A stretch of DNA of 64,000 nt from Chiloscyllium plagiosum (Eukaryota), in assembly GCF_004010195.1 (NCBI RefSeq), contig NC_057718.1, forward strand, positions 61,618,136 to 61,682,135, read 5' to 3'. The notes beneath the pieces are model-generated. The model was not told where the DNA came from, searched no databases, and worked only from the letters and a program-made list of their open reading frames with translations. Shown piece by piece: positions 9,073-60,465 of this stretch (position 1 is the first letter of the stretch; every line of letters starts with the position of its first letter). A program made the position numbers and the translations under genes.

Positions 9073-9829
9073 GTTGGGTAGCAATGGGTCACTGGACCCC
9101 TCTTGGGGGGGTCGGGGGGGGGTGCGATTCTGAGTATCTCCCCCAAATCTAGCAAGGTTTCTAAGCCACATCTTCAAAGGTCCTTTAACCTGCTCGATCA
9201 TCATCCAAGTAATCTCCTGTCGTGTGTTATAACTCTGCTCTGTGATTGTACCAGGGTCCTTCATATCTGCAAGGAGACACATCTTCAGTGGATTGCCTTT
9301 GTTACTCAATTACCATCATTGAAGGAAACCAAACACTGACTCAATATCTAGGCATTGTGACAACTTCCCAGACACCTTGTACAGACCTGAAGAAACTATT
9401 TGTGGTGAGCACACACCAGCTCCACATTGACTGAGTGGAGGGCCTCTAGTTGCCTGGTGAGTGAAAGCCTTGATGGCCAAATGTCTGAAGTCGATCCCTG
9501 GTCTAAGAGGGATCCCAATGATCTCTTCCAGTGATACATTCCCTCATGAAATCTTTGCTCCTCTGACCCTGACCCTATTCCATTTCTCCAAACTCCAAAC
9601 TTAGTTTTCACCCCAAAGGTAGGTCTGCAGGTTCAGACCATTTGTCAGCTTGCTGCACCTGCCTTGGAGAAAAATGACTTCATTCTGGAGAGATGGAAGA
9701 TATGTCTTTGTGTTGGTGTGATAGCCTGGTTAAGAGCCCCACCTAAGTTCTCTGGGACTTTGTCTCAGCTGTACTGTTAAATCTTAGGCCCTCTCACCCT
9801 CACCCCCAAATCCTCTTGCCTCACTCACT

Positions 9830-9960
9830 GGTATTCCTGATGAAGGGCTTTTGCCTGAAACATCGATTTTACTGCTCCTCGGATGCTGCCTGAACTGCTG
9901 TGCTCTTCCAGCACCACTAATCCAGAATCTGGTTTCCAGCATCTGCAGTCATTGTTTTTA
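9830..9960 (+). mobile_element. Solo PLE pLTR-tail mini-insertion with degenerate hammerhead, 11 bp TSD
   Basis: CCTCACTCACT at 9819-9829 and 9961-9971. Contains ttc-CTGATGA-agggcttttgcct-GAAACATC and is nearly identical to the 3' end of the PLE at 18143-18273. Confidence 0.85.
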
Positions 9961-11774
9961 CCTCACTCACTCCCATGCCCTGTCTGTCCTAACTCATGCC
10001 AACCCTTTGCTCCTCAACCGTAACCAGAGTTTTATCACAAACTGTATGGCAACCCTTGTCCTACACCCATCACTCCAATGCCAACTTTGTATCAATTCAT
10101 GCCAACCTGAGTCCCCGACCCACCATCAATGCTCATTAAATCACCAACCTACTGGAATTACATTCATAGGTGCAATGCTCTTATCTGAACTGGCAACATA
10201 TATGTTATAAAACATGATTACACATTCTAGGTGTGTACTTGGCAGAGAAGACAACATTCTCCTGGATCCAGTGAGTACAGAATTTGTCAAGCTTCTCCGG
10301 TTTATGCATTGTGTAAATGGGAACACTTTTTAGAGTGAGGTTCTCATGTTCAGTAGTTTTTAACAACCCATATTCACTGCAGGTTGATCTTCCATATTTG
10401 GAGCCATTGCAGCTCTAATAGGTGGCCAGACCCATTAGCCTGCAGCATTGATGCAGCCACACTCACTCACTTGAGCAATAATGTCTGAGGTAGGTATGTC
10501 TGAGGCAAATAAAAGGGGAAATCAACTGAAAGGGGTCGTTGGATGTAAGGGTGTGCAACTTAATAGGAGAATAAACAGTAATGATAAAAGGAAATGTGAA
10601 GCCAAAGAAAGCAAATGAAGGGATGGGTTTATAGAGGGCAGTTGAAGAACCCATATGAACGGAGACAACAGTATGGGACTCACAAGGGAGAGTCACAGTT
10701 AGACAATAGGAATTATGAGGTTTGGAAGCTGAATATTTAGGGCAAGGAATGGACTGGAGTAATTTGGAGAGCTGAGGAGGGACAAAAAGCAATGAAACTG
10801 AAATGGAGTGGTGGAAGTGTCAGGCTGAGTGCTGAAATCTCGATTGGTGTAGGTTCACGGGAAAAGGGAATAGATGTCATTGATATGAGTAATGGGCAAG
10901 ATTTATAGGGGAGTCTGAACGAGGTCACAGGGGAAGTGGGTTGAAAGGCTATCTAATGTAATGAAGTGAGAAGTACAAGAAGGGAAAGGTACAGGTGAAA
11001 AGAACAAAAAGGGAAGTTATCTCCCAATTCGGGAATGTAAGAATGTGTAGTACAAAAGAGAGGGGCCCCAGATCTGTTTACACATGTTGAGGCTGGCTGA
11101 AAACATAACCAAAGCAGGCGATCAAAAGTAAAACTCAAGAAAGCCTATTGTACAAGCAATCCCTTAAGGCATTTGCAATGAAGCCAAACAGTGACTGTAA
11201 ATTCAATGCCACTAATGCCTCATGTTACGCCTCAGCGGGGTAGCATGCTGGGAATCGAACCCTGCTATTCTCAGAGTTGTCGCAAAAATTAAAGATTTTT
11301 AAAAGTATGCAGAATTCCCCAAGTTACATGATTTTCAGGCCCTGACTAACAGAAAGCACAGACCACAGTTCTGCACACAACAAGAATTATTATTTATTGT
11401 CAGTAAGTAGACTAGCCACAGGTAAACAGTTAAGAACCATTGACACAGAACCACCAGTTAATTCTTTAAATTCTTCTAAGTTCCCCCTTACTCAATCTCT
11501 CATACACGCGCACACGTGCACATGTGCACACATTTACACACACAGATGCACACAAACACATGTGCGCAAACACACAAGAGTGCATTCACATACAAACACA
11601 CGCATGCACCCACAAACGCATATGGATGCACACGCATTCTTGGCAGAGGAAACCTGGTAAAGCAATTCAGTGATTTCTGTTCACAAGGCCGGCTGGGACG
11701 GTTCTTGTACTGATTAGAATGTTGCTTCTTGCTCTTACTTTTTTTAATCATTCTGTACCTTGTAGCTACTGAGT

Positions 11775-12225
11775 GTCAGTGGTGGAGGCAGTGGATGCTT
11801 GTAGATGATGTGTTGATCAAGCTGGCTGATTTTTCCTTGGATTGTGTCAAACTTCTTGAATGTTGTTGGAGCTGCATCTTTTCAGGCATTCTATCACAAT
11901 CCTGACTTGTGCCTTGTAGGTAGTGGACAGACCTTGTAGAGTCAGGAGGTGAGTTACTCATTGCAGTATTCCTAGTCTCTGACCTGATCTCGTAGCCGCT
12001 GTGTTTATGTAGCAAATTCAGTTGAATTTCTGGTCAATGTTAACCCCCAGGATGTTAAGAGTGGGGGATTCAGTGATGGTTACACCTTTGCTGTTAAGGC
12101 TTGGTGGTGAGGTTATCTCTTATTGGTGATGATCATTGCCTGGCATTTGTGTGGTGTGTATTTTACTTGGCACTGTTCATCCCAAGTCTGAATATTGTGC
12201 AGATCTTGTTGCATTTTTACCTGAA
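11775..12225 (-). mobile_element. CR1/L2-group LINE RT C-terminal fragment
   Basis: Minus strand reads QQDLHNIQTW, TPHKCQAM, LNILGVNIDQK and LSTTYKAQVR. Homologous to 34755-35440, 43110-43547 and 46945-47215. Confidence 0.75.
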
Positions 12226-13139
12226 CCAATCACATTGTTGTTTGAAGGTAGAGGGCCTTTGTCATCAATAACTGGTCACTAGTCCATAGACCAATAGACC
12301 TATTGCTAGTTGAAGCTCGACGTGCACACACCCTTGTTTTCAGCTTGTCGGCACGATTTCCTGCTTCTATTGGACCAGCCGCTGTGTAACCAATGCTGAC
12401 AATGAATGTCAAGTTACTTCCTTGAAACATACAGTAATCCTTCAGCAACCCATGGTTTTTTAAAGCAGTTACTTTACCATTTCAGTCCACTACCAAAATA
12501 CAGAAAAACAAAAATAAAGGTTCCCAGAAAGCATGGCCAATCACTCTTGTGTGAAACACTCAATATGACGTTGAACAGCTGCTCCTGCATCCACCAGGGA
12601 CAGAATTAAACTGACAATTATTCTATTAATAATGAATTTCTATTGCCTGCACTGTTCAGGAGAAATATCTGGTGCTTTCTGGACAGCACCTCCACAATAA
12701 TTATTGTTTTTGGCAAGAACATGGAACAAGAACACAGGAAAGTATAAGAATATATGTGTATTTATTTACAATATAGTCATTCATAAAAGGTTGACTCCCA
12801 TGCACCCACTTTGAATATTCTTTAACGGTTCTGTTCTGGACAATACATCTAGATGCCACCTCAGCAGGAAGCTGCTTACTTTGTTCCCTTACCATCGTGG
12901 AGTTTGGTGGGAGTGTTCAGGGGGCTCAGGGCCTAGAGGGCTCCTAACACTTGGAGTTTTTCTCACAGTGGAAGGTCTTTGGTCTGAGCTGTTGAATGGT
13001 GGAGGTACTGAGCAGAAGGGAGGTGGGCTGACACCTCTAGCATGTCTTAAGGAGAGATTTCCTGTTGCTTCACCTCCCTGCCAGTGTACAATGATACTTT
13101 CATCTTTACAGGGAATGGGGCACCTGGACTGAAATAAAA

Positions 13140-13470: not shown

Positions 13471-13756
13471 TCAAAGGGGCCCCTCTTACCATCCCAGTGA
13501 CTAAACACCTTCATTCCGTGACCTGACAGAAATTGATTACTGTACTGGACCTGGCTCCTCACATTGCTGCCACCCAATCCATGGAGACAGTCACGTGCCC
13601 ACAGTCTGGTGCCACAACCTCAGTCAGAACCTTTGAAGGTTCCTATGTCCAGTCTTTGACCCAGACTTTTTGTCGGATCTGATTGACATCCTCCTGCTAG
13701 CCTTCATGCCCCAGTCAACTCATAAATGGCCAAGTCTAGGAAATCAACCCAACTCG

Positions 13757-16560
13757 GAGTGTGGTGCTAGAAAAGCACAGCAGGTCAGGCAGCATCGAAG
13801 GAGCAGAGGAATCGACGTTTCAGGCCAGAGCTCTTCATCAGGAATGAGGCTGGGAGCCTATGGGGTGGAGAGATAAATGGGATGGGTTGGGGCTAGGGGG
13901 AAGGTAGCTGAGAGTGCAATAGGTGGATGGAGGTGGGGGTAATGGTGATAGGTAAGAGGGGAAGGTGGAGTGGATAGGTGGGAGGAAGATTGACAGGTGG
14001 GACAGATCATGAGGGTGGTGCTGAGCTGGAAGGTTTGAACTGGGATAAGGTGGGGAGAGGGGAAATGAGGAAACTGGTGAAATCTACATTGATGCCATGG
14101 GGTTGGAGGATCCTGAGGCAGAAGGTGAGGCATTCTTCCTCCAGGCGTCGGGTGGTAAGGGAGTGACGATGGAGGAGGCCCAGGACCTGCATGTCCTCAG
14201 CAGAGTGGGAGGGGGAGTTAAAATGTTTGGCCACAGGTGATGGGGTTGGTTGATGCAGGTGTCCCGGAGATGCTCTGCAAGTAGGCGTCCTGTCTCCCCA
14301 ATGTAGGGGAAACCACATCGGGAGCAATGGATACAGTAAATGATTTGTGTGGAAGTGCAGGTGAAACTTTGATGGATGTGGAAGGCTCCTTTGGGGCCTT
14401 GGGTGGAGGTGAGGGGGGAGGTGTGGGTGCATGGTTTTATTCTGCAGTGGCAGGTAAAGGTGCCAGGAGGGGAGGGTGGATTGTTAGGAGGCGTGGACCT
14501 GACGAGGTAGTCACAGAGGGAATGGTCTTTACACAAAGCAGATAAGGGTGGGGAGGGAAGTATATCTGTGGTGGTGCGGTCCATTTGTAGGTGGCAGAAA
14601 TGGCAAAGGATGACGTGATGTAAACAGAGGTTGATGGGTTGGAAGGTGAGGACCAGGGGGGTTCAGTTCTTATTGCTGTTAGAGGGGTGGGATTTGTGAG
14701 AGGAAGTGCAAGAAGTGGATGAGATGCGCTGGAGGGCAGCATCAACCATGTGGGAGATGGAACTGTGGTCTTTTAAGAAAAAGGCCATCTGGCATGTTCT
14801 GTGGTAGAACTAGTCCTCTTGGGAGCAGATGCAATGGAGGCGGAGGAATTGGGAATATGGGATGGCATTTTTGCAGGAGGCAGGATGGGAGGAGGTGTAA
14901 TCTAGGTAGCTGTGATAGTCGGTGGGTTTGTAGAAAATGTCAGTGTTGAGTCAGTCACCGTTGATGGAGATGGAGAGGTCCAGGAAGTGAAGAGAGGTGT
15001 CAGAGATAGTCCAGGTGATGTTAAGGTCAGGGTGGAATGTGTTGGTGAAGTTGATGAACTGTTCAACCTCCTCGTGGGAGCATGGGGTGGCATCGATGCA
15101 GTCATCAATGTAGCAGAGGAAAAGATGGGGAGTGGTGCCAGTGTAATTGCGGAAGATAGACTGTTCCACGTCGCCGGCAAAGAGACAGGCATTGCTGGGG
15201 CCCATGCGGGTGCCCATGGCTACCCCTGTCATCTAGAGGAAGTGATAGGATTCAAAGGAGAAATTGTTGAGGGTGACGACCAGTTCAGCCAACACATTCC
15301 ACCCCGACCTTAACATCTATCTCTGACACCTCTCTCCCCTTCCTGGACCTCTCCATCTCCATCAACAGTGATTGACTCATCACTGACATTCTCTGCAAAC
15401 CCACCGACTCCCACAGCTACCTGGATTACACCTCCTTCCACCTTGCCTCCTGAAAAAACACTATCCCTTATGCCCAATTCCTCCGCCTCCGCCGCATCTG
15501 CTCCGAGGAGGACCAGATACACCATAGAACACGTTAGATGGCCACCTTCTTTAAAGACCACAATTTCCCCTCCCACGTGGTTGATTATGCCCTCCAGCAC
15601 ATCTCATCCACTTCCCACACCTCCGCCCTCAAACCCCACCCTTCCAACCGCAACAAGGACAGAATCCCCCGGTCCTCACCTCCCACCCCACAATCCTCCG
15701 CCATTACCACCATCTACAAATGGACCCCACCCTTATCCACTTTCTGTAAAGGCCGTTCCCTCCGCAATTACCTCGCCAGGTCCACATCCCCGAACAACCT
15801 ACCCTCCACTCCTGACACCTTCCCCTGCCACTGCAGGAATTGCAAAACCTGCACCCACATCTCCACTCTCACCTCTGTCCAAGGCTCCAAAGTAGCCTTC
15901 CACATCCATCAAAGTTTCACCTGCAATTCCACACCTGTCATTTATTGTATCCATTGCTCCTGATGCAGTCTCCTGTACATTGGGGAGACAGGACGCCTTC
16001 TTGCAAAGCAATTTAGGGAACATCTCTGGGACACCTGCACCAACAAACCTCACCGACCCGTGGCCAAACACTTCAACTCCCCCTCCCACTCCGCTGAGGA
16101 CATGCAGGTCCTGGGCCTTCTCCATCGCCACTCCCTAACCACCCGTTGCTTGGAGGAAGAATGCCTCATCTTCCACCTCGGGATCAATGTGGATTTCACC
16201 AGTTTCCTCATTTCCCCTCTCCCCACCATGTCCCAGTTCCAAACTTCCAGCTTAGCTCCGCCCTCATGGTTGTCCCACCTGTCCATCTTCCTTCTCACCT
16301 ATCCACTCCACCCTCCCCTCTTACCTATCACCATTACACCCACCTCCATCCACCTATTGCACTCTCAGCTATCTTACCCCTAGCCCCACCCCCTCCCATT
16401 TATCTCTCCACCCCCAAGACTCCCAGCCTCATTCCTGATGAAGGGCTTCTGCCCAAAACATTGATTCTCCTTCTCCTTGGATGCTGCCTGACCAGCTGTG
16501 CTTTTCCAGCACCATACCTTCAACTTTAATCTCCAGCATCTGCAGTCCTCACTTTCGCCT
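13757..16560. mobile_element. Neptune-like PLE palindrome: minus arm (about 13757-15288) and plus arm (about 15289-16560)
   Basis: Minus arm encodes GVAMGTRMGPS..YIDDCI and IIYCIHCSRCGFPYIGETG. Plus arm encodes the same thumb and GIY-YIG region (CHCRNCKTC..VIYCIHCS). Both arms end outward in hammerhead-bearing pLTRs. Confidence 0.88.
13811..13845 (-). ncRNA. Minimal hammerhead motif in PLE pLTR
   Basis: Reverse complement reads attc-CTGATGA-agagctctggcct-GAAACGTC-gatt. Core intact, stem II mutated. Confidence 0.55.
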
Positions 16561-17094
16561 ACTCAACATTTGTACTCAGCAGGGGCCTGTTCTTAAGCTG
16601 TTTCTTCTTCCTGTAGTTGATGGTCTGTGCTGTTCGCTCCAGAATGTGACCCTTAGCCTATTCTGCATAAATTACACCTTGAGATAAGTGTCTCTGAGTT
16701 GCTGGAGGGTGAGGTGGGACACCTTGATGATGCTTCCTCTGAAGATCCTGACTGCTTCTCCTCTGGAAAGTGATGTGTGAGACTAGGAGAAAGGAGACTG
16801 GGGGAATTGGCTCTGCATTGTCCTCAATAGGCCTGCAATTAAGACCCCAAGGTTGCAGAAAAATATTAAAAAGATGTGTTCATTGGGCAACCCTTACCAA
16901 TGGTTACATTACAGCTTTGGTGCTTGATGTGAGATGCTGTTTGGAGCATTCTCACGCGACAGCTGGACATATCCCATTTCACCTCATGCACAGGGTTCTC
17001 AGGCCAGCCAGCTCTTCAAAGGTGATGAGAACCTAGAATTCAGGCATTCTGCTCCCTGTCATGGTACACTCCCCCTGGTACTGCAGGTTATTGG

Positions 17095-18271
17095 CCGTAA
17101 TTACACCGACACCACTCCCCACCTCTTCCTCCGCTACATTGATGACTGCATTGGCGCCACCTCGTGCTCCCGCGAGGAGGTTGAGCAATTCATCAACTTC
17201 ACCAACACATTCCACCCTGACCTTACGTTTACCTGGACCATCTCTGACACCTCCCTCCCCTTCCTGCACCTCTCCATCTCCATTAATGATGACCGACACT
17301 GACATTTTTTACAAACCCACCGACTCCCACAGCTACCTGGATTACACCTCTTCCCACCCTACCTCTTGCAAAAAAGCCATCCCAATGTATTCCCAATTCC
17401 TCCGCCTCCATTGCATCTGCTCCCAGGAGGACTAGTTCCACCACAGAACACACCAGATGGCCTCCTTCTTTAGAGACCGCAATTTCCCTTCCCACGTGGT
17501 TAAAAATTCCCTCCAAAGCATCTCGTCTACATCCCGCACCTCCGCCCTCAGACCCCACCCTTCCAACCGTAACAAGGACAGAACGCCCCTGGTGCTCACC
17601 TTCCACCCTACCAACCTTCGCATAAACCAAAACATCCACCGACATTTCCGCCACCTCCAAACAGACCCCACCACCAGGGATATATTTCCCTCCCCACCCC
17701 TTTCCGCCTTCCGCAAAGACCATTCCCTCCGTGACTACCTGGTCAGGTCCACGCCCCCCTACGACCCACCCTCCCATCCTGGCACTTACCCCTGCCACCG
17801 CAGGAACTGTAAAACCTGCACCCACACCTCCTCCCTCACCTCTATCCAAGGCCACAAAGGAGCTTTCCACATCCATCAAAGTGTTACCTGCACATCCTCC
17901 AATATCATTTATTGTATCCGTTGCTCCCCATGCGGTCTCCTCTACANNNNNNNNNNNNNNNNNNNNNNNNNNNNNNNNNNNNNNNNNNNNNNNNNNNNNN
18001 NNNNNNNNNNNNNCTCCACCCTCTCTTCCCTGACCTATCACCTTCAACCCCTCCCCCACTCACCCATTGTACTCTATGCTACTTTCTCCCCACCCCTACC
18101 CTCCTCTAGCTTATCTCTCCACGCTCCAGGCTCACTGCCTTTATTCCTGATGAAAGGCTTTTGCCCGAAATGTTGATTTCGAAGCTCCTTGGATGCTGCC
18201 TGAACTGCTGTGCTCTTCCAGCACCACTAATCCAGAATCTGGTTTCCAGCATCTGCAGTCATTATTTTTAC
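17095..18271 (+). mobile_element. 5'-truncated Neptune-like PLE with 14 bp TSD (contains an assembly gap)
   Basis: CTGCAGGTTATTGG at 17081-17094 and 18272-18285. Encodes FLRYIDDCIG, FYKPTDSHSYLDY and CHRRNCKTC..IIYCIRCSPCGLLY. Hammerhead-like CTGATGA..GAAATGTT near 18147. Confidence 0.92.
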
Positions 18272-22269: not shown

Positions 22270-22990
22270 AACTTACTCACTCAGACTTCAGAAAGATTAC
22301 AACTGACTGGAAACTGTAAACATAACAACTCTTTTTGAAAAAGGAAGAAGGCAATAAAAAGGAAACGTTAATATTTGTCACCAGAAATAAAATTAGAATT
22401 CATTATAAAAAGTAATAGTAGGGAAGACACAAAACATTCAAATAGAGTCAACATTTATGAAAGGAAAATTGTGTTTGAAAACGTGATTAGAGTACTTTGA
22501 GGATGTAATAAATAGGGTAGATGAAGGCAAATCAGTGGATGCAGTTTATTTGGATTACCGAGAAATATCCAATAAGCTGCTACATGAAAGATCAATACAT
22601 AATGAAAATACTTATGATTTTAGGATGGAGACAAAAAAAACTGCAGATGCTGGAATCCAAGGTAGACAGGCAGGAGGCTGGAAGAACACAGCAAGTCAGG
22701 CAGCATCAGGAGGTGGAGAAGTCAATGTTTTGGGTGTAACCCTTCTTCAGGACCTATGGTTTTAGGATAGCATTGTGGCATGGAAAGGCTTGGCTAACTA
22801 ACCGGAAACAGGAAGTGAGAATAAATGGGTATTTTTTAAATTGGCGAACTGTAGCTAGTGGTATTCCACAGAGATCAGTGTTAAAGCATCAACTTGTTAC
22901 AAGTTATATTAATGATTTAGACAAAGGGACAGAGAGCACAAGGCCAGATTTTCTGATGATACAAAGGTAAGTGAGCAAGCAAGTTGTGAG
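22270..22990 (+). mobile_element. Decayed CR1 RT fragment interrupted by a PLE mini-insertion
   Basis: MDAVYLDY and WLTNRKQEVRINGYFLNWRTVASGIPQRSVL..YINDLD motifs. Confidence 0.8.
22627..22754 (-). mobile_element. Solo PLE pLTR-tail mini-insertion, 14 bp TSD with 1 mismatch
   Basis: TATGATTTTAGGAT at 22613-22626 versus TATGGTTTTAGGAT at 22755-22768. Reverse complement starts g-gtc-CTGAAGA-agggttacaccc-AAAACATT-gac. Confidence 0.8.
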
Positions 22991-23885
22991 AAAGGCACAA
23001 TCATTTGATTTTCACAAGGTTGTGAATACTCTCCACCTTCTTCAAAATGGCACCAGGAGGTACAGTCTGGAAACTTTGTCCCCATGGCCATCAGAAAGTA
23101 TTTTCATAAAGAGGCGAGAGGGTCAACACACAAGATGTGATTCATATACAGGAGACCCAGACCTACAGGGCCATTTGAAATCAGTTTAAAGTTCCAACAA
23201 ACTTCATTTTTGCTGGAATGGTGTACATTTGCCTCAGTGTGTGCCTTATAATTTTCCAGAGAAATGTAAATGTGTATAAAATATGGATACAATATATGGA
23301 ATCTTCAAGCTGCCAAGTTATCCCTGCACTTTAACTTTTGGAAAAAAATACTGTCTCCAATTGGAAAAGATCAGTGCTTGAATCTTCAATAGATGGTTGT
23401 CAACATAAGCCTGAGGGTTAATCATTGCCATGTAATTATGGTTTGCCTGCTTCCACAACCTTTATTGTCACTGAGGGAGGATAAATTTGCAGTTTGATTA
23501 ACAGTTCCAAGAGGTTAGTTATTGAGGGATTAGTTTTCTTTGCTGTGGGTCATGAATACAAATGTTTCATTTTATAAGGGATTAAGTATTTAAAAGAATT
23601 CATATGTATTGAGCAGATTTTTATCAATGAAAGTTTTCTCTTAATATAACAATGTTTATATATAACACGTAGATCTTTGCTTTATTTCATCTCATCATGG
23701 CATGGCATGATTGATACTTGGTGGTATGTAGAATGAAAAGACAAATGATGGAGAGTAGGTCATTGGTTGGCATGAGTGAACATAAATTAGCATAGAGCTA
23801 TAAGGGGTTTATAGGGATGAATATGGGGATCATATGTTAACATGGGTTATGACATTGGGACTATAAAGAACCATGGGAATGAGGA

Positions 23886-24065
23886 GAAAGTGAGGACTGC
23901 AGATGCTGGAGATCAGAACTGAAAATGTGTTGCTAGAAAAATGCCCTTCTTCAGGAAGGGCTGATGCCCAAAGAAGGGCTGGAGAAGGGCTCATGCCCGA
24001 AACGTCGATTCTCCTGCTCCTTGGATGCTGCCTGACCTGCTGCGCTTTTCCAGCAACACATTTTC
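23886..24065. mobile_element. Fold-back PLE pLTR mini-element, 17 bp TSD
   Basis: AACCATGGGAATGAGGA at 23869-23885 and 24066-24082. Two inverted pLTR pieces join at the hammerhead. Confidence 0.85.
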
Positions 24066-24224
24066 AACCATGGGAATGAGGACAGGCACATGTATTGGCA
24101 TCAAATGTAATAGAGTCCATGGAAGTTGATAAAAGGACATAGGTTGACACAGAGAGCATGAAGAGCCAATGGATGGGTAGAAAGACACGTTAATACATTA
24201 TAGAGATAATATGGAGAGTGTTAC

Positions 24225-24748
24225 ATTTTGAATGAGATGTTAAGCAAAGACCCCATCTGCAAGTTCAGGTAGCTGTGAAAATCCTACAGCTTTATACTGA
24301 ATTAGAGTAGGAAGTTCTCCCTGGTATAATAAAAGCAAAATATTACAAATGCTGGAAATGATAAATAAATTACAGGAAACACTGCAGAAACTCAGCAGGT
24401 CCAGCAATATCTGTGGAGAGAAAGAGAGTCAATGTTTTGAATTCAACATGACTCAATACTCCCATCAAATGCAAAACATTGACTCTATTTCTCTCTCCAT
24501 AGACGCTGTCAAACCTGCAAAGTTTCTCCAGCGATTTCTGTTTTAATTTGAGTTTGTTCTGGGGACCTGACTAATGTTTATCCTTCAATCAATATCATCA
24601 AATAAGCAATCTGATTATTATCACACTGCAGTTTTGTGTAATGTTGATGTATGCATGTTGGCTGTTCTGGGGATTCCTACACTACAGCAGAGACTTCATG
24701 ACAGTGGCTGTACAGTGAGCTTGAAAACAGCTACATAAATGCAAGTTA
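24225..24748 (+). mobile_element. Deu-domain SINE (SacSINE1-like), split by a fold-back element
   Basis: Degenerate Deu core (TTTATCCTTCAATCAATATCA..ATTATCACACTGC..TTGGCTG..TTCCTACACTACAGCAG) and 3' end CTACATAAATGCAAG. Confidence 0.6.
24331..24550. mobile_element. Older fold-back pLTR-derived element (third family)
   Basis: Inverted arms CTCAGCAGGTCCAGCAATATCTGTGGAGAGAAAGAGAGTCAATGTTTTG and CAAAACATTGACTCTATTTCTCTCTCCATAGACGCTG. Related copies at about 26620-26815, 30037-31068 and 60291-60465. Confidence 0.65.
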
Positions 24749-37852: not shown

Positions 37853-37989
37853 AGGAGAAAGTGAGGGCTGCAGATGCTGGAGATCAGAGCTGAAAATGTG
37901 TTGCTGGAAAAACGCAGCAGGTCAGGCAGCATCCAAGGAGCAGGAGAATCGACGTTTCGGGCATGAGCCCTTCTTCAGGGCTCATGCCC
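37853..37989 (-). mobile_element. Solo PLE pLTR tail with intact hammerhead core and a micro-inversion
   Basis: Reverse complement of 37949-37979 is c-CTGAAGA-agggctcatgccc-GAAACGTC-ga. Positions 37977-37989 are an inverted copy of stem II. Confidence 0.85.
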
Positions 37990-41555: not shown

Positions 41556-41599
41556 TTTTCTACCAAGGGATCAATTTTAAAACTTCAATGGTTTATTTA

Positions 41600-42536: not shown

Positions 42537-42665
42537 AGGAGAAAGTGAGGACTGCAGATGCTGGAGATCAGAGTCAAGAGTGCGGTGCTGGATAAGCACA
42601 GCAGGTCAGGCAGCATCCGAAGAGCAGGAGAATCAATGTTTCAAGCATAAGCCCTTAATCAGGAA
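42537..42665 (-). mobile_element. Solo PLE pLTR tail with degenerate hammerhead
   Basis: Same family as 37853-37989. Homology ends 3 nt upstream of CTGATTA. Confidence 0.8.
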
Positions 42666-43547: not shown

Positions 43548-43775
43548 AGTCAAAAAGTGTGGCGCTGAAAAAGCTTAGCAGGTCAGGCAGCATCTGAGGA
43601 GCAGGAGAATTGACGTTTCGAGCATAAGCCCATTATCAGGAAACCTCACGATTCCTGATGAAGCGCTTATGCCTGTAACATTGACTCTCCTGTTCCTCGG
43701 ATGTTGTCTGACCTGCTGTGCTTTTCCAGCACCACACTTTTCGATTCTGAGCTCCAGCATCTGCAGTCCTCACTT
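43548..43775. mobile_element. Fold-back PLE mini-element with two divergent hammerhead motifs, 14 bp TSD with 2 mismatches, inside a LINE fragment
   Basis: ATTCCTAGCATGAG at 43536-43549 versus ATTCCTGACATGAG at 43776-43789. Cores at 43633-43639 (minus) and 43655-43661 (plus). Confidence 0.85.
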
Positions 43776-43903
43776 ATTCCTGACATGAGCCAGGTAAACA
43801 GGCATCAAGAAAACAGGAGATGTGTGGTCACAAAATTACTCACCTCTGACCCCCTCTCATAACTATAATTTATGGTATAGATCGTCTCGATCAGTTTCTG
43901 ATA

Positions 43904-45025
43904 TTTTTATTTCAAAAATATACATTGTTTATTAAAAATCTCTTTTTATATATTGTCACAATTGCAGTTTGATTCTATACAGTAATATACCAAGTAAACA
44001 AACAAATATTTGAGTTTGACTCTATCAATTCCGCCACCTCCAAACAGACCCCACCACCAGGGATATATTTCCCTGCCCACCCCATCAGCGTTCCGGAGAG
44101 ACCATTCCCTACGCAACTCCCTCGTCAGGTCCACACACCCCCACCAACCCAACCTCCACTCCCAGCACCTTCCCCTGCAACCACAAGATGTGCAAAACTT
44201 GCGCCCACACCTCCCTCCCTCACCTCCCTCCAAGGCCCCAATGGATCCTCCATCGCCAGACCCCGGCCACACGACACCTGGAGGAAGAGTGCCTCATCTT
44301 CCATCTAGGAACCCTCCAACCACACAGGATGAATGTAGATTTCTCCAGCTTCCTCATTTCCCCTCTCCCCACCTTATCTCAGTCCCAACCCCTGGATTCA
44401 GCACCGCCCTCTTGACCTGCAGTCTTCTTCCCGACCTCTCTGCCCTCACAACCTCTCCGGCCGATCACCCTCACCCTCACCTCCTTCCACCTATCGTATT
44501 CCCAGTGCCCCTCCCCCAAATTCCGCCCCCCCACACACCTTTTATCTCAGCCCGCTTGGCACACCAGCCTCATTCCTGAAGAAGGGCTTATGCCCGAAAT
44601 GTCGATTCTCCTGCTCCTCAGATACTGCCTGGCCTGCTGCGCCTTTCCAGCACCACACTTTTCAACTCTATTCCAACAAACCAAAGGCATCTCTTACGTG
44701 TACAAGATTATATTTACATTTATTGAGGCATGAGGAGGGTCCAGTAATCGAACAGACCGCCAAGTAACTTCAACAGGAAGATCTCTGCTTGTGGTCTTTC
44801 CTCACTGCACCTTGGCGGAAGCTGCCCCAAACTTTAGTCCATCCCTCAGCATGTAGTCCTGGACCTTGGAGTCTGCAACACTCAGTCAAAGTCAATTCCT
44901 TGTTCTGGAAGACCAACAAGTTCTGGACAGACCAGAGAGTGTCTTTCATCGAGCTGATTGTCCTCCAGGCTCAGTCGATATTTGTCTCAGTGTAAATCCC
45001 AGGGAACAGATCGTAGTGTTGATTA
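43904..45025 (-). mobile_element. L1/Tx1-like LINE 3' end, interrupted by a PLE fragment
   Basis: Minus strand reads LFPGIYTETNID*AWRTISSMKDTLWSVQNLLVFQNKELTLTECCRL, with an AATAAA and A-rich 3' end near 43904-43935. Confidence 0.7.
44028..44669 (+). mobile_element. Internally deleted Neptune-like PLE 3' fragment
   Basis: PTPSAFRRDHSLRNSLVRS, CKTCAH and LEEECLIFHLGTLQP. Hammerhead CTGAAGA-agggcttatgccc-GAAATGTC at about 44576-44603. Confidence 0.88.
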
Positions 45026-48599: not shown

Positions 48600-48995
48600 T
48601 GATGTTGCTGGGACTGGGAGAGTTTAAGTTATAAGGATAGGCTGTGACTTTTTTTCACCTGAGCGTAGGAGGTTGATGGCTGAGGTTATAGAGGTTTATA
48701 AAATCATGAGGGGTATAGATAAGGTGAATGGCAAAGGTCCTTTCCCTCGGGTGGGGAAATTCAAAACTAGGTGGCAAATTTTTAAGGTGAGAGGAGAAAG
48801 ATTTAGAAGGGACCTGAGGGGCAACTTTTTCACACAGGGTGGTTAGCATTTGCAACATTTAAAAAAACATTTGGATATGCACGTGAATAAGAAAGGTTTA
48901 AAGGGATGTGGGAGAAACACAGTCAAGTGGGATAAGTTTAGTTTAGGAGACTTGGTCGGTATGGACCAAAGGGCATGTTTCTACTCTATAATTCT
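48600..48995 (+). mobile_element. CR1 3' fragment
   Basis: IEVYKIMRGIDKVN and the CR1 3' UTR. Confidence 0.85.
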
Positions 48996-53720: not shown

Positions 53721-56214
53721 TGTCTGGATCCACTTTCTTTTGCATTCATTCAAGTCCATCATCATATTTATATAATGTGTGATGCTGTGATGTTCCCCTC
53801 ATCCCACAACATCATTGAAGAGTTCTTTAGGTATTAGGCTGCTTCTGTCCAACATTAACCTCCTTTTTATGTTATTGCCACTAAGTTCTGCATCACTGAG
53901 ATGACAATGTTACATTAACCAGCACCAAAGGCATGGTGGAATCTACCTTTGATTGACATTTAATGCATAAGCACATGCACTTTGCATTGTAAATGTGTGA
54001 AAAAATGTTCATAAATGAAATGTTGTGAAGTTCGTGTCTTTGGTTCTTCACTGTCCTATGGTCCAGCAAAGGTGGATCCTGCACTCTTGTCCATCAAATT
54101 GACACTGGCACCTCCCACCCTGGGCACTGTCCCAGCCATTGTTCAGCTGCTTTGCGCAGCCAGAGAATGGTCAGTGATGGCAGGAAAGGCATTTTGAGCT
54201 GGATACCAGCGAACTCTGCCCGGTTATCAGGTACGTCCCCAGAGCGTCCAACTCTCCTTTTACCTCACAGTACCCCAACAGCCCATTTCCACCCATCCCC
54301 CAATGGCAGTCATCACATTGAACACTACCTCCAGCTTCCTCCCTGCCCCCTGAATCCCAACTTTAAACCTTAATGATACTCACCCTGCTCCACTATGCTC
54401 CATCTGAGGAGGGAGCAGTGGATGTCATTGTCTCTCACCTCCCCCTCCTGCAGCCTACAAGGCCCTTATGTTGTTCCGCATAACCCCAGACAACTTGAAT
54501 TTTCCTCAGCACCACCCTTCCCACCTCCAAAAATGCCTCTGCTTTCCCTTCCACAGTGTTAAGCACCCTCCACCACTTTTGGACATGTTCCCTCCTCGGC
54601 CCCTAAACGCATCCCTTCAATCTCCTTTAATAACTGAAAAACAGAACTCCAAGACCCCAAACTGACTTTGACAACAAGCCCATAGACAGGACTGACCTGA
54701 CCCCTGACCACAGACTTTGCAGCTCCCCAACTGATGAAACATGATTCCCCTGACTGCCACTAGTCTTATTAGACAGACAGCTGCCCACTCCCTGGATGGC
54801 ATGGGGATAGATCCCCTGATGGTGATTGCTCCAAATGGATGACTGATTGTGCCCATGACTGATACCAGGTCCCCCTGACTGAGATCACTCCTCCCCCAGA
54901 CTGAACTGAGGACAAATCCCCACTCAGTGTCCAACATGGCCGCTTGGTTGAATGCACATATGTGCTGGTCGCGCAAACAGTTAGCACATAATGTTTCACT
55001 GTGCCATGCAGCAAGATTTCTGTGCCCACCCCTCCCCAATAGGTCCCTATTGACAAGCAGCCTGACTATGTGACTGCACAAAAGAGCTCATCAATATAGC
55101 AGCACTGATAGTCTTTGACTGATGTACCCCAAAGCACTGACTGGCATGACATGGCACAGCAGGCAGGATTTGGCATAGATGCTGTGAGCATGCAGGGGGC
55201 CCTAACTGAGCAAGCAACCCTAAGACACAGCCTAGTCCAACCACAGAGTTGGGTGTATCCATGATTGCAAAATATCGTGGCAGAAGCCTCTCAGTGCCAG
55301 CCGCCAGTGTCCCTGCAACATATGTCTATGCTTCCTCGGTAGCTTCAAAAGTGAATTGGAGAGGTACCATGTTGGTTGTGAGCAGTTGACAAGTACCAAT
55401 GTCCATAGGTAAGGGTGCATGAAGCTAGTTCCCATGGCCCTGAGGTGATGCTTGATGCTGGGTAACATGGAGATAGATTGGGACAGCAGGAAGAGAGAAC
55501 GTTGGTGGGGGGGGGAGGGTGAGGGAGGGGTAGGGAGGTGGGGAAGAGAGATGGCAGGGACTGGGAAGAGGGAGGGACACTGGAATCCGGGAGGGAGCCA
55601 GAGAGGATTGGGTGGGGAAAACAATGGTGGGGGATTGCAGAAGGTGACAGGGAGGGAGAGGACTTCCTGGCATATGGACCCTCCTTGCGCCACCCCATCC
55701 CAGGATTGCTGTCTCTTTGTCATCCCTCAAGCCTCTGGGTCCTTTTCCCTTCAGACTCCAGGGGAGTCCCCATACCATGTCCCTTCTCCTCACCACTGAA
55801 GCCCAGTTCAAAAATGTGTGCACTTCCCTGCACATGTACAATAATGCATTTGTGCCTGATATCATATGGAATGTCTGCATGATGATATCAGTGTGTGAAA
55901 GTTTGTTTTTGGTAATGAGCACACATGCGCAGTTGGCTGCAGTTGGCAGTGTCAGTAAACACTGCCTAGTTTTTATTGTTGTGTTTTGTAATTTCTTTGC
56001 TTTCTCATAGTGGCTGTTTGTCAATCATTCATTCATATATTATTTCGAGACCTTTTTTGTTTCTTTACTTGTTCTATTACCATACCCTTGACCTTGCACC
56101 AATCCTTTTGTCATTTAATCTGCCGTGCTTCACAGCTGTCACACACCTTCCCTTTTACTCTTTTTTTTCATCCTCGGCATTTCATTTGTTTAAAATTCAT
56201 ACATTTCCCCCCAT

Positions 56215-56465
56215 GTCTGAGTGGGTTTCCTTCGGGTGCTCCAGTTTCCTCCCACAATCCAAAGATGTGTAGGTTAGGTGAATTGGTCATGCTCAATTGC
56301 CCATAGTGTTCAGGCTTGTGTAGGTTAGATGCATTAGTCAGGGGGAAACGTCGAGTAATAGGGTAGGGGAATGAGTCTGAGTGGGTTACTCTTCAGAGGG
56401 TCAGTGTGGACTTGTTGGGCCAAATGGCCTGTTTCCACACTATAGGGATTCTATGATTCGATGAT
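56215..56465 (+). mobile_element. 5'-truncated HE1-like SINE nested in an old pLTR
   Basis: V-domain and tail present. Host pLTR sequence continues on both sides (about 56040-56210 and 56466-56580). Confidence 0.85.
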
Positions 56466-56813
56466 TTCTAACTTGCCCTACCTGTGATGAAAGGTCATTG
56501 ACCTGAAGCATTTATTGTTGTTCCACTCCCCCGTGGTACTGCCTGTTTGATATTTCCAGCATTTTCTCTTTTTGCTGTTTTTTGCAACCAGTTGGCAATC
56601 AAACCTTTGAAGGTTCATAATATTCTCTTCTTGTCTTTCAATATTGGCTTTTTCACCTGAATAAATCTGCATCAAATCCCCAATATTATCACATTTGTAC
56701 ACTTAAACTGGTAACAGAAGAAAATCAAAATGTCAGAAAACCCAGTTAGAAAGGAGTAGACGCCAATAGCACTAGTGTCTGTGGCAACATTAGGCAGTTT
56801 CATTTTTAAAGAG

Positions 56814-57724
56814 GAGAAAGTGAGGACTGCAGATGCTGGAGATCAGAGCTGAAAATGTGATGCTGGAAAAGCGCAGCAGGTCAGTCAGCATCCAAGGAAC
56901 AGGAGAATCGACGTTTCGGGCATGAGCCCTTCTTCAGGAATGAGGAAAGTGTGTCCAGCAGGCTAAGATAAAAGGTAGGGAGGAGGGACTTGGGGGAGGG
57001 GCTTTGGAAATGCGATAGGTGGAGGGAGGTCAAGGTGAGGGTGATAGGCCAGAGTGGNNNNNNNNNNNNNNNNNNNNNNNNNNNNNNNNNNNNNNNNNNN
57101 NNNNNNNNNNNNNNNNNNNNNNNNNNNNNNNNNNNNNNNNNNNNNNNNNNNNNNNNNNNNNNNNNNNNNNNNNNNNNNNNNNNNNNNNNNNNNNNNNNNN
57201 NNNNNNNNNNNNNNNNNNNNNNNNNNNNNNNNNNNNNNNNNNNNNNNNNNNNNNNNNNNNNNNNNNNNNNNNNNNNNNNNNNNNNNNNNNNNNNNNNNNN
57301 NNNNNNNNNNNNNNNNNNNNNNNNNNNNNNNNNNNNNNNNNNNNNNNNNNNNNNNNNNNNNNNNNNNNNNNNNNNNNNNNNNNNNNNNNNNNNNNNNNNN
57401 NNNNNNNNNNNNNNNNNNNNNNNNNNNNNNNNNNNNNNNNNNNNNNNNNNNNNNNNNNNNNNNNNNCCACCTTCCTAACCTGCAATCTTCTTCCTGACCT
57501 CACCGCGCCCACCCCCACTCTGGCCTATCACCCTCACCTTGACCTCCCTCCACCTATCACATTTCCAACGCCCCTCGCCCAAGTCCCTCCTCCCTACCTT
57601 TTATCTTAGCTTGCTGGACACACTTTCCTCATTCCTGAAGAAGGGGTCATGCCATAAACATCGATTTTCCTGCTCCTTAGATGCTGCCTGACCTGCTGCG
57701 CTTTTCCAGCAACACATTTTCAGC
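56814..57724. mobile_element. PLE with inverted pLTRs and 15 bp TSD (interior is a gap, 57058-57466)
   Basis: TTCATTTTTAAAGAG at 56799-56813 and 57725-57739. About 56847-57057 is the inverse of about 57515-57724. Confidence 0.9.
56906..56941 (-). ncRNA. Minimal hammerhead motif, intact core
   Basis: Reverse complement reads attc-CTGAAGA-a-gggc-tcat-gccc-GAAA-CG-TC-gatt. Confidence 0.7.
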
Positions 57725-57809
57725 TTCATTTTTAAAGAGCCAAAACTTCCTTATGAGCTTTACATTCAGGGCAAATTTGAATTAATGTGAAATCTGATTT
57801 TAAAATCAA

Positions 57810-58390
57810 TGTAAAAAGTAGAAAAGTTTTGTTAAAACTGCACAAAGCACTAGTCAGACCACAGCTGGAATACTGCGCACAGTTTTGGACCCTTATCAAA
57901 GGGAGGATATATTGGCATTGGAGGCAATCTAGAGAAGGTTCATTAAGCTGATACCGGGTATGGAGGAATGTCTAATGACGAGAGGTTGAGTAGATTGGGC
58001 ATGTACTTGTCGGAATATGGAAGATTGAAAGGTGACCTTATTGAAATATATGAAATTCTTAGGGGACTTGACAGGGTAGATGTGGAGGGGTTGTCTCCCC
58101 TTGTGGGGGAGCCTAGGATCAGAGGTCATCATCTCAAAATAAAGGGTCGCATATATGACGCAGAGAAGGGGGACTTCTTTTTTCAGAAGGTAGTGAATCT
58201 GTGGAATTCTTTACCACAAAGGGCTGGTGAGGTATATTCAAGGCTGAGATAGCCATATTTTTAATCAAGGCTTATGGAGAAAATGCAGGAAAATTGAATT
58301 GAGAATGATCCAATCAGCCATGACCTCATTGAATGATGGGCAGTCTCGATGGGCTGAATGGCCAACTTCTGCACCAACTTCTTATTGCTG
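57810..58390 (+). mobile_element. CR1 RT C-terminus and 3' UTR
   Basis: KALVRPQLEYCAQFW and ERLSRLGMYLSEYGRLKGDLIEIYEILRGLDRVD. Confidence 0.88.
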
Positions 58391-58404: not shown

Positions 58405-58978
58405 GTTGGTTAGCTCAGTTGGCTAGAGAGTTGGTGTCAAGAGTATGTGGTCCTGAAAAAGCACAGCAGGTCATGCAGAATCTAAGAAGCAGGAAGAGCT
58501 GGTGAGTGATGTCCCCAGCATGTGTTCAATTCCTGTACTAGCTAAGGTTACTCTCCCTCTGAATCCCACCCCTCACCCGAGGCATGGTGGCCCTCAGATT
58601 ATAATAGATTAGATTACTTACAGTGTGGAAACAGGCCCTTCAGCCCAACAAGTCCACACCAATCCTCCAAAGAGCAACCCACCCAGACCCATTCCTCTAC
58701 ATTTACCCCTTCATCTAACACTACGGGCAATTTAACATGGCCAATTCACCTAACCTGCACATCTTTGGACTGTGGCAGGAAACCGGAGCACCCAAAGGAA
58801 ACCCACAGAGACACAGGGAGAATCTGCAAACTCCACACAGATAGTTGCCCGAGGCGGGAATTGAACCCAGTTCTCTGGCGCTGTGAGATAGCAGTGCTAA
58901 CTATTGTGCCCCGTGCCACCTGGATAGACCAGTCATCTCTCTCTAATGCAAGAGTATGACCATGGTGATTTTACTTAT
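58405..58978 (+). mobile_element. Second tRNA-derived SINE family, split by a pLTR piece and an HE1 SINE
   Basis: A box TAGCTCAGTTGG near 58411 and B-box-like GTTCAATTCC near 58524. The body resumes at about 58928. Confidence 0.5.
58605..58920 (-). mobile_element. HE1-like SINE, full length
   Basis: Reverse complement shows a tRNA head with GGTTCAATTCC, the V-domain and a (TCTAA)n tail. Confidence 0.9.
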
Positions 58979-59354
58979 TTAAATAGCTAATTAGACCAAA
59001 AAGCATTTTGCAAGTGGATGTGTATCTAATTCAGCTGGTGTAACTTTGAACTTTCAATGCCTCCAACTGGTTAGTTGTCATAGTTCAGGTTTGCTCCAGT
59101 AGAATTCAATAAAACTCAGTGTAGACTGAAAATTCCTGAACAGTCAGAATCTCGGTTGAGACCCAGCTTTGGAACTCCAAAGCTCAGCAGGGTGGAATAT
59201 TCCAGGATCTCGACAGCATCACCTCCACAAGGATTCACAATTGCAGATGTGGAACCATAAGGAGTTGCTAAGGGGGAGCCAAGTGTTGACCTCACAAAGG
59301 GCAGACAGATGAAAGGGATAACGTGTCAGCCATTCTAACATACTTTACCACCTG

Positions 59355-59670
59355 GTCTGTGTGGGTTTCCTCCGGGTGCTCCAGTTTCCTCCCACAATCC
59401 AAAGATGTGTAGGTTAGGTGAATTGGTCATGCTCAATTGCCCATAGTGTTCAGGCTTGTGTAGGTTAGATGCATTAGTCAGGGTTAAACGTCGAGTAATA
59501 GGGTAGGGGAATGAGTCTGAATGGGTTACTCTTCAGAGGGTCAGTGTGGACTTGTTGGGCCAAATGGCCTGTTTCCACACTATAGGGATTCTATGATTCG
59601 ATGATTTCTAACTTGCCCTACCTGTGATGAAAGGTCATTGACCTGAAGCATTTATTGCTGTTCCACTCCC
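59355..59670 (+). repeat. 316 bp local duplicate of 56215-56530
   Basis: Ungapped alignment with 6 substitutions by my count, including about 65 bp of non-SINE flank. Confidence 0.92.
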
Positions 59671-60154
59671 TCTTGGTGGACTGATCACAGAGGTTTTACC
59701 TGTCCTCTTGGAGAGAAATAAGGTGTCATGTTGACAAAATTGGAAAATAACCTGTCAATCAAACCACTGTAAGGGAAGAAAATGGATACCATCCTTACCC
59801 AGAGATCTAGACCTGGAATTCAAGTTCAGTATGTTACAAGATTTCAGTGAATCTCTATTTATTCTGGTTCCTTCACTAAATTACATTTCCAGATAGATTT
59901 AAGTGGAACTTATTGCAGATTCACAGATGGCTAAGGCAACCAAATATTATCTGTACACAAACACTAGAAAGTGGAGCATGGGATCAGAGGCTTCAGCTAA
60001 ATCTTAGGATGACATTTGTCAGAAGGTGTGCGAGAATGAAACCACCGATGCAATGGATCCATCATATTAACCAACACAGGCTGCTTCATATTCAGGTCTG
60101 TTGAAAAGTAATGGAGGCAGTCCCATGGGCATAAAGGTAAAATGATGATGTCAA

Positions 60155-60465
60155 AAAAACTGAAATTAAAGCAACGTAGGCTGGAAACACTCAGCAAATC
60201 CGACAGCATCTCGAGTGAGAAAAACCGAGTTAACATTTCACGTCATGACCGTTCATCAGATCCTTATTCCCACAGATGGTGTGCGTGCGTAAAAGCACAA
60301 ATTGTTGGAGAAGCTCAGCAGGTTTGGCAGCATCTTTTTGAAGGGTCACTGGAGCCAAAATGTTAACTCTGCTTTCTCTCCACAGGTGCTGCTAGATCTG
60401 CTAAGTTTCTACAGCAATTTCTGGCTTTATTTCAGATTTCCAGCATCCGCAGTTCTTCAGTTTTA
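60155..60465. mobile_element. Two adjacent pLTR-derived units: solo minus copy 60155-60260 and fold-back 60291-60465
   Basis: Reverse complement gives t-CTGATGA-acggtcatgacgt-GAAATGTT-aac ending at 60260. The second unit has inverted arms and a CCAGCATCCGCAG tail. Confidence 0.7.

What the first reader, a model, noticed from the sequence alone, without database searches (positions are those of the whole stretch)
9819..60465. Hammerhead-anchored non-coding mini-retroelements whose 5' ends fall at the ribozyme
Seen: at least seven independent short insertions from several pLTR families contain only hammerhead + pLTR end + tail (9830-9960, 22627-22754, 23886-24065, 37853-37989, 42537-42665, 43548-43775, 60155-60260). 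In each, the 5' boundary or inversion point lies within about 1-7 nt upstream of the CUGANGA core. Four have their own TSDs. Known: PLE pLTRs carry minimal hammerheads, and ordinary 5' truncation should scatter breakpoints. Inference: this is either a discrete non-autonomous ribozyme-defined unit of about 125 nt mobilised by PLE RT/GIY-YIG (SINE- or retrozyme-like), or a strong RT stop or switch at the ribozyme. The boundary is upstream of the core, not at the predicted cleavage site after NUH, so simple cis-cleavage does not explain it. This is the best candidate for an undescribed system in the window.
Basis: partly seen in the sequence, partly recalled or inferred. Interest (0 to 1): 0.78.

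Follow-up and report, generated by a model that had tools for sequence, protein, structure and literature searches.

The report
Penelope stubs ending at transcription start
These tiny insertions are real short copies of the ribozyme-bearing end of a known jumping gene (Penelope-like) and not a separate mini-element family; half of them stop at one spot just before the ribozyme, likely because the copying enzyme starts near the front of the element's RNA and runs off its start, which would explain an open step in how these elements move.

Summary
All seven insertions are present; five have target-site duplications. In a 1.8-Mb sample of the genome, 83 of 166 insertions reaching hammerhead base C3 end 0-9 nt before it (4.4 expected). 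Only 8 of 227 end near the predicted cut site.

The SINE/retrozyme reading is not supported. Short and long copies interleave on a tree, and the short unit lacks the upstream TATA-like box.

The boundary most likely marks the RNA start. It lies about 31 nt behind an A/T island (55 of 65 long copies; shuffles 6). In an unrelated second Penelope family it sits at -5 to -9, behind a canonical TATAAA at -38 to -40. The tail runs into the ORF start, so published internal RT starts would give ~95-130-nt run-off cDNAs.

Head-to-head pairs carry one tail in 48 of 55, with the tail-less arm leading in 38 of 45, which fits two-sided priming. An extra G (cap?) is enriched but confounded. No RNA 5' end was seen. 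Earlier scan notes reached similar readings on other DNA, including this genome.

The parts
9830..9960 (+). Solo short insertion (hammerhead, pLTR end, tail); C3 at 9837; homology starts at -5 after two unmatched G; exact 11-nt TSD 9819-9829 / 9961-9971
22629..22754 (-). Solo short insertion of another subfamily; C3 at 22750; starts at -3 with G at -4; 16-nt TSD (2 mismatches) 22613-22628 / 22755-22770
23886..24065 (.). Head-to-head pair: inverted tail-bearing arm with a rearranged junction, forward tail-less arm starting at C3 (23979); exact 17-nt TSD 23869-23885 / 24066-24082
37853..37989 (-). Short insertion; C3 at 37978; starts at -1 behind an 11-nt fold-back of stem II; 14-nt TSD (2 mismatches) 37836-37849 / 37995-38008; the same junction recurs elsewhere in the genome with arms of varied length
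42537..42665 (-). Older solo short insertion; C3 at 42662; starts at -2; no TSD found
43548..43775 (.). Head-to-head pair: tail-less arm to -3 (C3 43639, minus) and tailed arm from -4 with G at -5 (C3 43655, plus); 14-nt TSD (2 mismatches) 43536-43549 / 43776-43789
   Evidence: left junction bridged by a contig of another sample (record 24)
60155..60260 (-). Old tail-less arm; C3 at 60259; starts at about -1; no TSD; faces arm 60340-60457 (plus)
13752..16561 (.). Long head-to-head pair of the same element type, with decayed RT-linker-GIY-YIG sequence; junction deep in the ORF; a counter-example to the boundary
16900..18270 (+). Long 5'-truncated copy: RT motif YIDD (17132), linker zinc finger, pLTR, tail; contains an assembly gap
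44000..44673 (+). Long 5'-truncated, tail-less copy
56812..57728 (.). Long head-to-head pair (tailed and tail-less arm) around an assembly gap; TSD 56795-56813 / 57721-57739
16398..16403 (+). TATA-like A/T island about 32 nt before the predicted start A; also at 18110, 44540, 57599 (plus) and 56973, 13878 (minus); absent from the short copies
16429..16435 (+). Initiator-like TCATTCC; its A (C3-4, 16431) is the predicted RNA start and also the first base of hammerhead stem I
16431..16466 (+). Minimal type I hammerhead motif (stem I -4..-1 with +28..+31, core, stem II, GAAA, predicted cut after +27); this copy carries decay changes
4358..7540 (.). Second, unrelated Penelope-like family (inverted arms, RT and GIY-YIG remnants, core at 4447 minus, canonical TATAAA at -38); used as an independent test of the boundary

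Best explanation
These are dead insertion products of endonuclease-bearing Penelope-like retrotransposons, and their shared 5' edge likely marks the transcription start of the template RNA, where reverse transcription would run off the RNA's end. Shown here: the boundary peak, a TATA-like island about 31 nt upstream, an initiator-like A at -4, the tail continuing into an ORF start at about +162, TSDs of about 14 nt, and one-tail pairing. Taken from print: PLE RT starts at two internal sites that lie in the start of the ORF and bound the tail, nicks and extends both target strands, and uses uncut RNA (PMC11167929). Inferred: the RNA begins with the hammerhead. When RT uses the start sites near the RNA's 5' end (+90 or +125), it copies only 95-130 nt and falls off at -4. 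When it uses the sites in the 3' pLTR it passes upstream and gives ordinary long truncated copies. The free cDNA end then joins the target, folds back on itself, or anneals by microhomology to a second cDNA primed from the other target strand, giving head-to-head pairs. The template may be the 5' leader of the coding mRNA or short transcripts from solo pLTR promoters; these were not separated. Short copies lose the TATA-like box and would be dead ends.
For: Peak: 83 of 166 insertions at 0..-9, 4.4 expected. Whole-genome exact counts for one young subfamily: 7436 reach -3, 5988 reach -4, 4196 keep the templated C at -5 and 3618 the T at -6; the largest single loss (30%) is just past -4. Best TATAWAW-like heptamer lies 26-36 nt before A(-4) in 55 of 65 long copies, mode -31, shuffle mean 6, max 13; 16 of 21 dissimilar representatives, shuffle mean 3.8, max 10. 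YYANWYY at -6..0 in 41 of 65. Second family: ATAAA box at -37..-40 in 14 of 18 long copies; 18 of 28 other copies end at -5..-9 and none at -2..-4. Tail runs into an open frame starting at +162/163 in two loci, whose relatives are predicted shark proteins starting at the same Met. ORF-leading copies share the edge: 63 of 234 lack the templated C at -5, 38 of them G. G share of untemplated bases: 1100 of 1792 at -5, against 18 and 30 of the first 100 listed at -4 and -6. Second family: 60 of the first 100 at -9, against 30 at -8. Pairs: 48 of 55 classifiable have one tail; the tail-less arm reaches further 5' in 38 of 45 untied, which one fold-back cannot make; 35 of 63 pairs have TSDs of 11-18 nt, control 0.
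Against: No RNA 5' end was observed. A(-4) is also the 5' edge of stem I (pairing 40 of 42 at -4, 2 of 42 at -5), so promoter and ribozyme edge coincide in the main family; in the second family stem I may extend to -6 with one mismatch. The extra G is confounded: in many of 19 G loci read, the neighbouring arm, the TSD or element sequence could supply it, and among solo copies only 3 of 8 untemplated bases are G (p 0.38). In the main families the A/T island is a weak TATA match (2 mismatches in 46 of 65) that reads ATAAA on the opposite strand. The edge is fuzzy (-9 to +10), and one subfamily has few short copies (3 of 27). No gap-free copy linking the ORF start to RT was found.
Confidence: 0.68

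Rival explanations
1. RT primed in the 3' pLTR stalls or switches template once it has copied through the hammerhead, because of RNA structure, bound protein or snap-back of the self-complementary cDNA; no RNA end is involved.
For: The boundary equals the stem I 5' edge in the main family. Fold-back junctions exist (37853). Extra stops occur within the ribozyme (+1..+23: 0.009-0.014 per nt against 0.003).
Against: A structure should block RT at its 3' edge (+28..+33), where there is no excess (8 of 227). Solo copies join the TSD directly at the edge. The boundary keeps about 30 nt from a TATA-like box in two unrelated families.
Confidence: 0.17
2. A discrete non-autonomous SINE- or retrozyme-like unit of about 125 nt amplifies from its own master copies using PLE enzymes.
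For: Short copies have their own TSDs. The short/long label is slightly clustered (29 changes against 37 shuffled, 1 of 500). One junction recurs in many near-identical copies. Non-autonomous PLE derivatives are known (PMC8557442; bioRxiv 2026.07.22.740005). A four-unit tandem of 194-224 nt appears.
Against: Never one clade; each well-sampled subfamily has both short and long members. 5' and 3' ends and arm lengths vary. The unit lacks the TATA-like box. The clustering is explained by subfamily differences in the short share.
Confidence: 0.08
3. RNA processing makes the end: hammerhead cleavage (at +28, or at an alternative site near -1) or a splice acceptor.
For: Intact GUC site in 28 of 42 long copies. 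Pyrimidine tract plus AG at about -17 to -25 in several subfamilies. In D. virilis the intron ends at helix I (PMC4209133).
Against: No peak at +24..+33; only 1 of 72 insertions ends at -20..-39 and 11 of 83 at -10..-19. Most ends lie upstream of -1. No shared spliced-on exon was seen upstream of short copies.
Confidence: 0.05
4. The peak is an artefact of alignment drop-off in divergent upstream DNA, later deletion or assembly collapse.
For: Upstream DNA is pyrimidine-rich and differs between subfamilies; the oldest subfamily has few long references; the assembly has gaps inside long copies.
Against: All 65 long references were called long. The peak holds in young copies (52 of 92). TSDs abut the edge. 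Exact-match genome counts show the same step.
Confidence: 0.02

Closest known systems
Insertion units of EN+ Penelope-like elements, Neptune/Nematis type (Craig et al. 2021, PMC8557442, passages read; Arkhipova et al. 2013, PMC3846280, passages read)
   Same: pLTR, adjacent inverted 5'-truncated copy, 30-40 bp tail at one end only, TSD, linker zinc finger and C-terminal GIY-YIG; a putative TATA plus Inr in the pLTR is noted for a rotifer family.
   Different: The passages describe 5' truncation without a preferred point, explain inversions by self-priming on an antisense template, and the tail by endonuclease resolution. Here half of the insertions end at one place about 31 nt behind a TATA-like box, and arm asymmetry favours two primed cDNAs.
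Poseidon PAc of Anolis carolinensis (Frangieh et al. 2024, PMC11167929, parts 1-2 of 4 read, supplements not seen)
   Same: Two internal RT starts in the ORF start bounding the tail, both target strands cut and extended, predicted dimer, uncut RNA as template. This predicts the 3' ends seen here (+90, +125).
   Different: Different clade; there the ORF starts inside stem II. The text read does not map the RNA start or describe mini-insertions ending at it; its Fig. S2 coverage plots were not seen and may bear on this.
[quoted passage not shown]
   Same: Same architecture; thousands of single motifs 'probably related to truncated PLEs', and opposite-strand pairs 100-700 bp apart.
   Different: Proposes cleavage and circularisation of the template; here insertion ends do not map to the cut site.
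Animal non-LTR retrozymes (Li et al. 2026, bioRxiv 10.64898/2026.07.22.740005, parts 1-3 of 5 read)
   Same: Non-coding, hammerhead-bearing, pLTR-derived; dispersed monomers exist.
   Different: Defined as head-to-tail arrays of two or more complete hammerheads; the seven insertions are monomers or head-to-head pairs without their own lineage.
Drosophila virilis Penelope promoter (Schostak et al. 2008, PMC2377424, passages and Discussion read)
   Same: Promoter lies in the pLTR; a partial tandem is needed for expression.
   Different: Compared there with TATA-less internal promoters; the start lies 46 bp before a 75-bp intron, so far upstream of the hammerhead, not at its first base.

Membership tests
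EN+ Penelope-like element (Neptune/Nematis type) | RT followed by C-terminal GIY-YIG in the parent element | tested here: met
   YIDD at 17132 and YIGET at 15973 in long copies; Pfam GIY-YIG E 2.3e-4, just under the curated cut-off, on locus L241; tblastn to the window. Remnants only.
EN+ Penelope-like element (Neptune/Nematis type) | Zinc-finger-like linker between RT and endonuclease | tested here: met
   C-x4-C-x2-C before the GIY-YIG region in window copies
EN+ Penelope-like element (Neptune/Nematis type) | pLTR with hammerhead, inverted 5' copy, 30-40 bp tail at one end, TSD | tested here: met
EN+ Penelope-like element (Neptune/Nematis type) | Clade placement by RT tree | not tested
   No intact RT was fetched; Neptune versus Nematis is unresolved
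SINE-like non-autonomous family | Short copies form their own lineage(s) | tested here: not met
   29 label changes, one group in 0 of 200 bootstrap trees; only 88 columns
SINE-like non-autonomous family | Fixed unit ends | tested here: not met
   5' ends peak at -4 but spread from -9 to +10; two 3' ends; variable arms
SINE-like non-autonomous family | Promoter carried inside the unit | tested here: inconclusive
   The TATA-like island lies outside the unit; downstream promoter activity cannot be tested from sequence
Non-LTR retrozyme | Head-to-tail array of two or more complete hammerhead units | tested here: not met
   None of the seven is tandem; one array elsewhere in the genome (C8)
Non-LTR retrozyme | Circular RNA and self-cleavage | not testable with these tools
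   Only poly(A) single-cell reads and contigs were on hand
Minimal type I hammerhead | CUGANGA, extra base, stem II, GAAA, palindromic minimal stem III, NUH, stem I | tested here: met
   Stem II pairs in 34-40 of 42, stem I in 34-41 of 42 with one U-U gap, GUC in 28 of 42; no Rfam hit; covariation not significant in 12 copies

The most novel reading that the evidence does not exclude
In these Penelope families the capped RNA begins with the hammerhead itself, so ribozyme cleavage would cut off the cap and act as a switch between message and template. A dimeric RT copies one RNA twice from two internal starts, one per cut DNA strand. Short TATA-driven transcripts from the many solo pLTRs could keep feeding about 125-nt templates to the enzyme: a renewable non-autonomous source that needs no master lineage.
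Probability: 0.2. Interest if true: 0.72.

Novelty: new variant of a known kind. Interest (0 to 1): 0.43.

Why it matters
How Penelope-like elements finish an insertion, why they form inverted repeats with one tail, and what their hammerhead does are open questions. If the reading is right, genomic stubs map the RNA start to the base without RNA data, place the ribozyme at the first bases of the transcript, show that the template is uncut, and give direct predictions for the existing in vitro system. It also warns annotators that abundant hammerhead 'mini-elements' with TSDs need not be SINEs or retrozymes. The elements themselves are of a known kind and are dead copies.

Tried and rejected
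Rfam scan: no hammerhead family hit, four chance miRNA-type matches. Pfam on 13 window frames: nothing informative; PDB sequence search: 0 hits.

Cap-G as proof: rejected as decisive. 19 G loci showed arm, TSD or element sequence often supplying the G; the solo test was 3 of 8; in a second pattern G led A only 56 to 44 of the first 100.

RNA: no RNA holder listed. Raw poly(A) single-cell reads: 2394 laid from X19, 0 from X20; 92% run on into unlike sequence; no place where many molecules begin. They look like passengers in host transcripts and give no test of the start. Contigs laid on 37400-44000 showed no empty-site joint among those listed (696 not shown); no test.

A locus with three cores 2-3 kb apart, taken for a tandem, was three separate insertions. 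Folding single copies does not give the hammerhead as lowest-energy fold, as expected for a minimal motif. A contiguous link from ORF start to RT failed on an assembly gap.

Literature searches that found no description of a 5' pile-up at the hammerhead or of twin priming in PLEs. PMC6431247 passages held nothing relevant. Subscription papers and all supplements were not seen.
Full report
Setting. The window is G000:C9:61.62-61.68 Mb of a 3.56-Gb genome. Relatives of the element's ORF start are predicted proteins of carpet sharks, so the host is likely a shark. Offsets below are from hammerhead base C3 = 0.

Observation. The seven stretches are present and hold only hammerhead, pLTR end and tail, singly or as head-to-head arms. 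Their homology to long copies ends between 0 and -5. Five have TSDs, three strong and two moderate; 42537 and 60155 have none. The window also holds six arms that run far upstream, with RT, linker zinc finger and GIY-YIG remnants, and several that stop inside the ribozyme.

Genome test. I took 18 blocks of 100 kb at arbitrary places on 18 chromosomes, found 367 arms and scored 289 against 65 long natural copies; 78 were dropped as short, weak, beside N or at an edge. Of 184 arms reaching C3, 95 stop at 0..-9, a rate of 0.052 per base against 0.001-0.004 further upstream; young copies give 52 of 92; every long reference was called long when left out. Counted per insertion, 83 of 166 stop there against 4.4 expected, and 8 of 227 stop at +24..+33 around the predicted cut. 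Exact whole-genome counts for one young subfamily fall from 7436 (-3) to 5988 (-4), 4196 (-5) and 3618 (-6), the largest step just past -4. The share varies by subfamily, from 3 of 27 arms to 26 of 57 (rough assignment).

Not a separate family. On a tree of 67 short and 48 long young copies (88 columns, weakly resolved) the label changes 29 times, 11 of them forced by well-supported branches, and is never one group; it is mildly clustered against shuffles (37). The best genome matches to the 37853 copy share its fold-back junction but have arms from a few to about 90 nt, which points to repeated formation, not a master.

What sets the edge. In long copies the best TATA-like heptamer starts 26-36 nt before A(-4) in 55 of 65 (mode -31; shuffles 6, max 13), and YYANWYY covers -6..0 in 41 of 65. 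With 21 dissimilar representatives it is 16 of 21 against 3.8. The match is weak in the younger subfamilies and reads ATAAA on the other strand; an older subfamily has sense TATAAA-like boxes. A(-4) is also the first base of stem I, so this family cannot separate promoter from ribozyme. A second, unrelated Penelope family in the window (4358-7540) helps. Its long copies carry a sense ATAAA box at -37..-40 (14 of 18), and 18 of 28 other copies end at -5..-9, none at -2..-4. The edge thus lies about 30 nt behind the box in both families, though stem I of the second family may reach -6.

Extra G. The base before the predicted start is G in 1100 of 1792 untemplated cases, against 18 and 30 of the first 100 listed at the flanking positions. 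In the second family it is 60 against 30 of 100; long copies show 0 of 57. A copied cap would do this (recalled from non-LTR elements, not from a call). But the partner arm, TSD or element sequence could supply the G in many of 19 loci read, and solo copies gave 3 of 8. I count it as suggestive only.

Why so short. In some loci the tail continues into a frame starting at +162/163, homologous to predicted shark proteins starting at the same Met. That this frame is the RT ORF is inferred; the one candidate link has a gap. Frangieh et al. (PMC11167929, parts 1-2 of 4) showed that PLE RT starts at two internal sites in the ORF start, extends both target strands and uses uncut RNA. The 3' ends here cluster at about +90 and +125. 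So start sites sit near the front of the RNA, and using them would yield 95-130-nt run-off copies. Copies that lead from the hammerhead into the ORF show the same edge: 63 of 234 lack the templated base at -5, and 38 of these have G.

Pairs. Of 63 head-to-head pairs, 55 could be classed and 48 have one tailed and one tail-less arm; 35 of 63 have TSDs of 11-18 nt, control 0. The tail-less arm reaches further 5' in 38 of 45 untied pairs. A single fold-back cannot make an arm that extends beyond its template's 3' end, so two primed cDNAs, likely on one RNA, fit better. Short fold-backs such as 37853 show that free cDNA ends near -1 also snap back. The one-sided tail itself is known (PMC8557442, PMC3846280, passages).

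Limits. No RNA end was observed; the available reads were uninformative. Cleavage, promoter activity and cis versus trans templates were not testable. Supplements, including the PAc coverage figure, were not seen.

Known and new. The elements are EN+ Penelope-like insertion units with minimal hammerheads (PMC4209133, parts 1-2 of 4); they are not retrozymes as defined by Li et al. (bioRxiv 10.64898/2026.07.22.740005, parts 1-3 of 5). A putative TATA and Inr in a pLTR is noted in PMC3846280, and the D. virilis start lies far from the ribozyme (PMC2377424, passages and Discussion; PMC4209133). Eight searches found no account of the pile-up or of twin priming. Earlier unchecked notes of this scan reached the start-site and twin-priming readings on other DNA; I had written both ideas down first, and they are not evidence. 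The TATA spacing and the second-family shift did not appear in the notes shown.

Verdict. A real, strong, genome-wide signal; not an undescribed mini-element; most likely a fossil record of the element's RNA start and two-sided priming. Interest 0.43.

Noticed in passing
window 4358-7540: Second Penelope-like family with inverted arms, RT and GIY-YIG remnants, a different hammerhead and a canonical TATAAA; a short copy of the first family (4670-4744) sits inside it next to a TG repeat.
   Followed up: partly
G000:C8:24157757-24158529 (listing): Four head-to-tail units of 194-224 nt (hammerhead, tail, ORF start), a retrozyme-like array; a similar pair at C10:95402197-95402581. Such units could arise by template jumps.
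   Followed up: no
L258, L260, L233, L222: Partial tandems in which the ORF start is joined directly to a new unit beginning at or near -4, a possible route to pLTR formation.
   Followed up: partly
window 37978-37989; L002-L030: A recurrent fold-back junction through a CCT/AGG microhomology between -1..+1 and stem II.
   Followed up: partly
window 56812-56926 (minus): In the young subfamily a 26-codon frame starts in stem II and stops before the tail, and the tail ends in a pyrimidine tract with AG; a possible uORF or splice acceptor ahead of the main ORF.
   Followed up: no
window 24343-24555: Old head-to-head pair lacking the hammerhead core; it causes the chance mir-3202 and mir-14 Rfam matches.
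   Followed up: yes
window 468-707, 24853-25095, 58599-58841, 56204-56503, 59344-59643: Dispersed SINE-like repeats (resemblance to shark HE1 is recalled, not tested); 56204-56503 and 59344-59643 are 97% identical over 300 nt.
   Followed up: no
window 7591-7929, 8738-9004, 29222-29550, 48652-48948, 58026-58081: Dispersed 3' fragments of a LINE-like repeat (class recalled, not tested).
   Followed up: no
window 30225-30770: Frame with a Pfam ALKBH8_N hit (E 4.5e-7), probably a retroelement fragment.
   Followed up: no
P0001-P0003: Public shark proteins named 'mucin-2-like' or uncharacterized look like frameshifted reads of this element's ORF start, so likely misannotations.
   Followed up: partly
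window 17947-18013, 29152-29215, 57058-57466: Assembly gaps or masked stretches, two of them inside long copies; long and inverted copies may be under-assembled.
   Followed up: no
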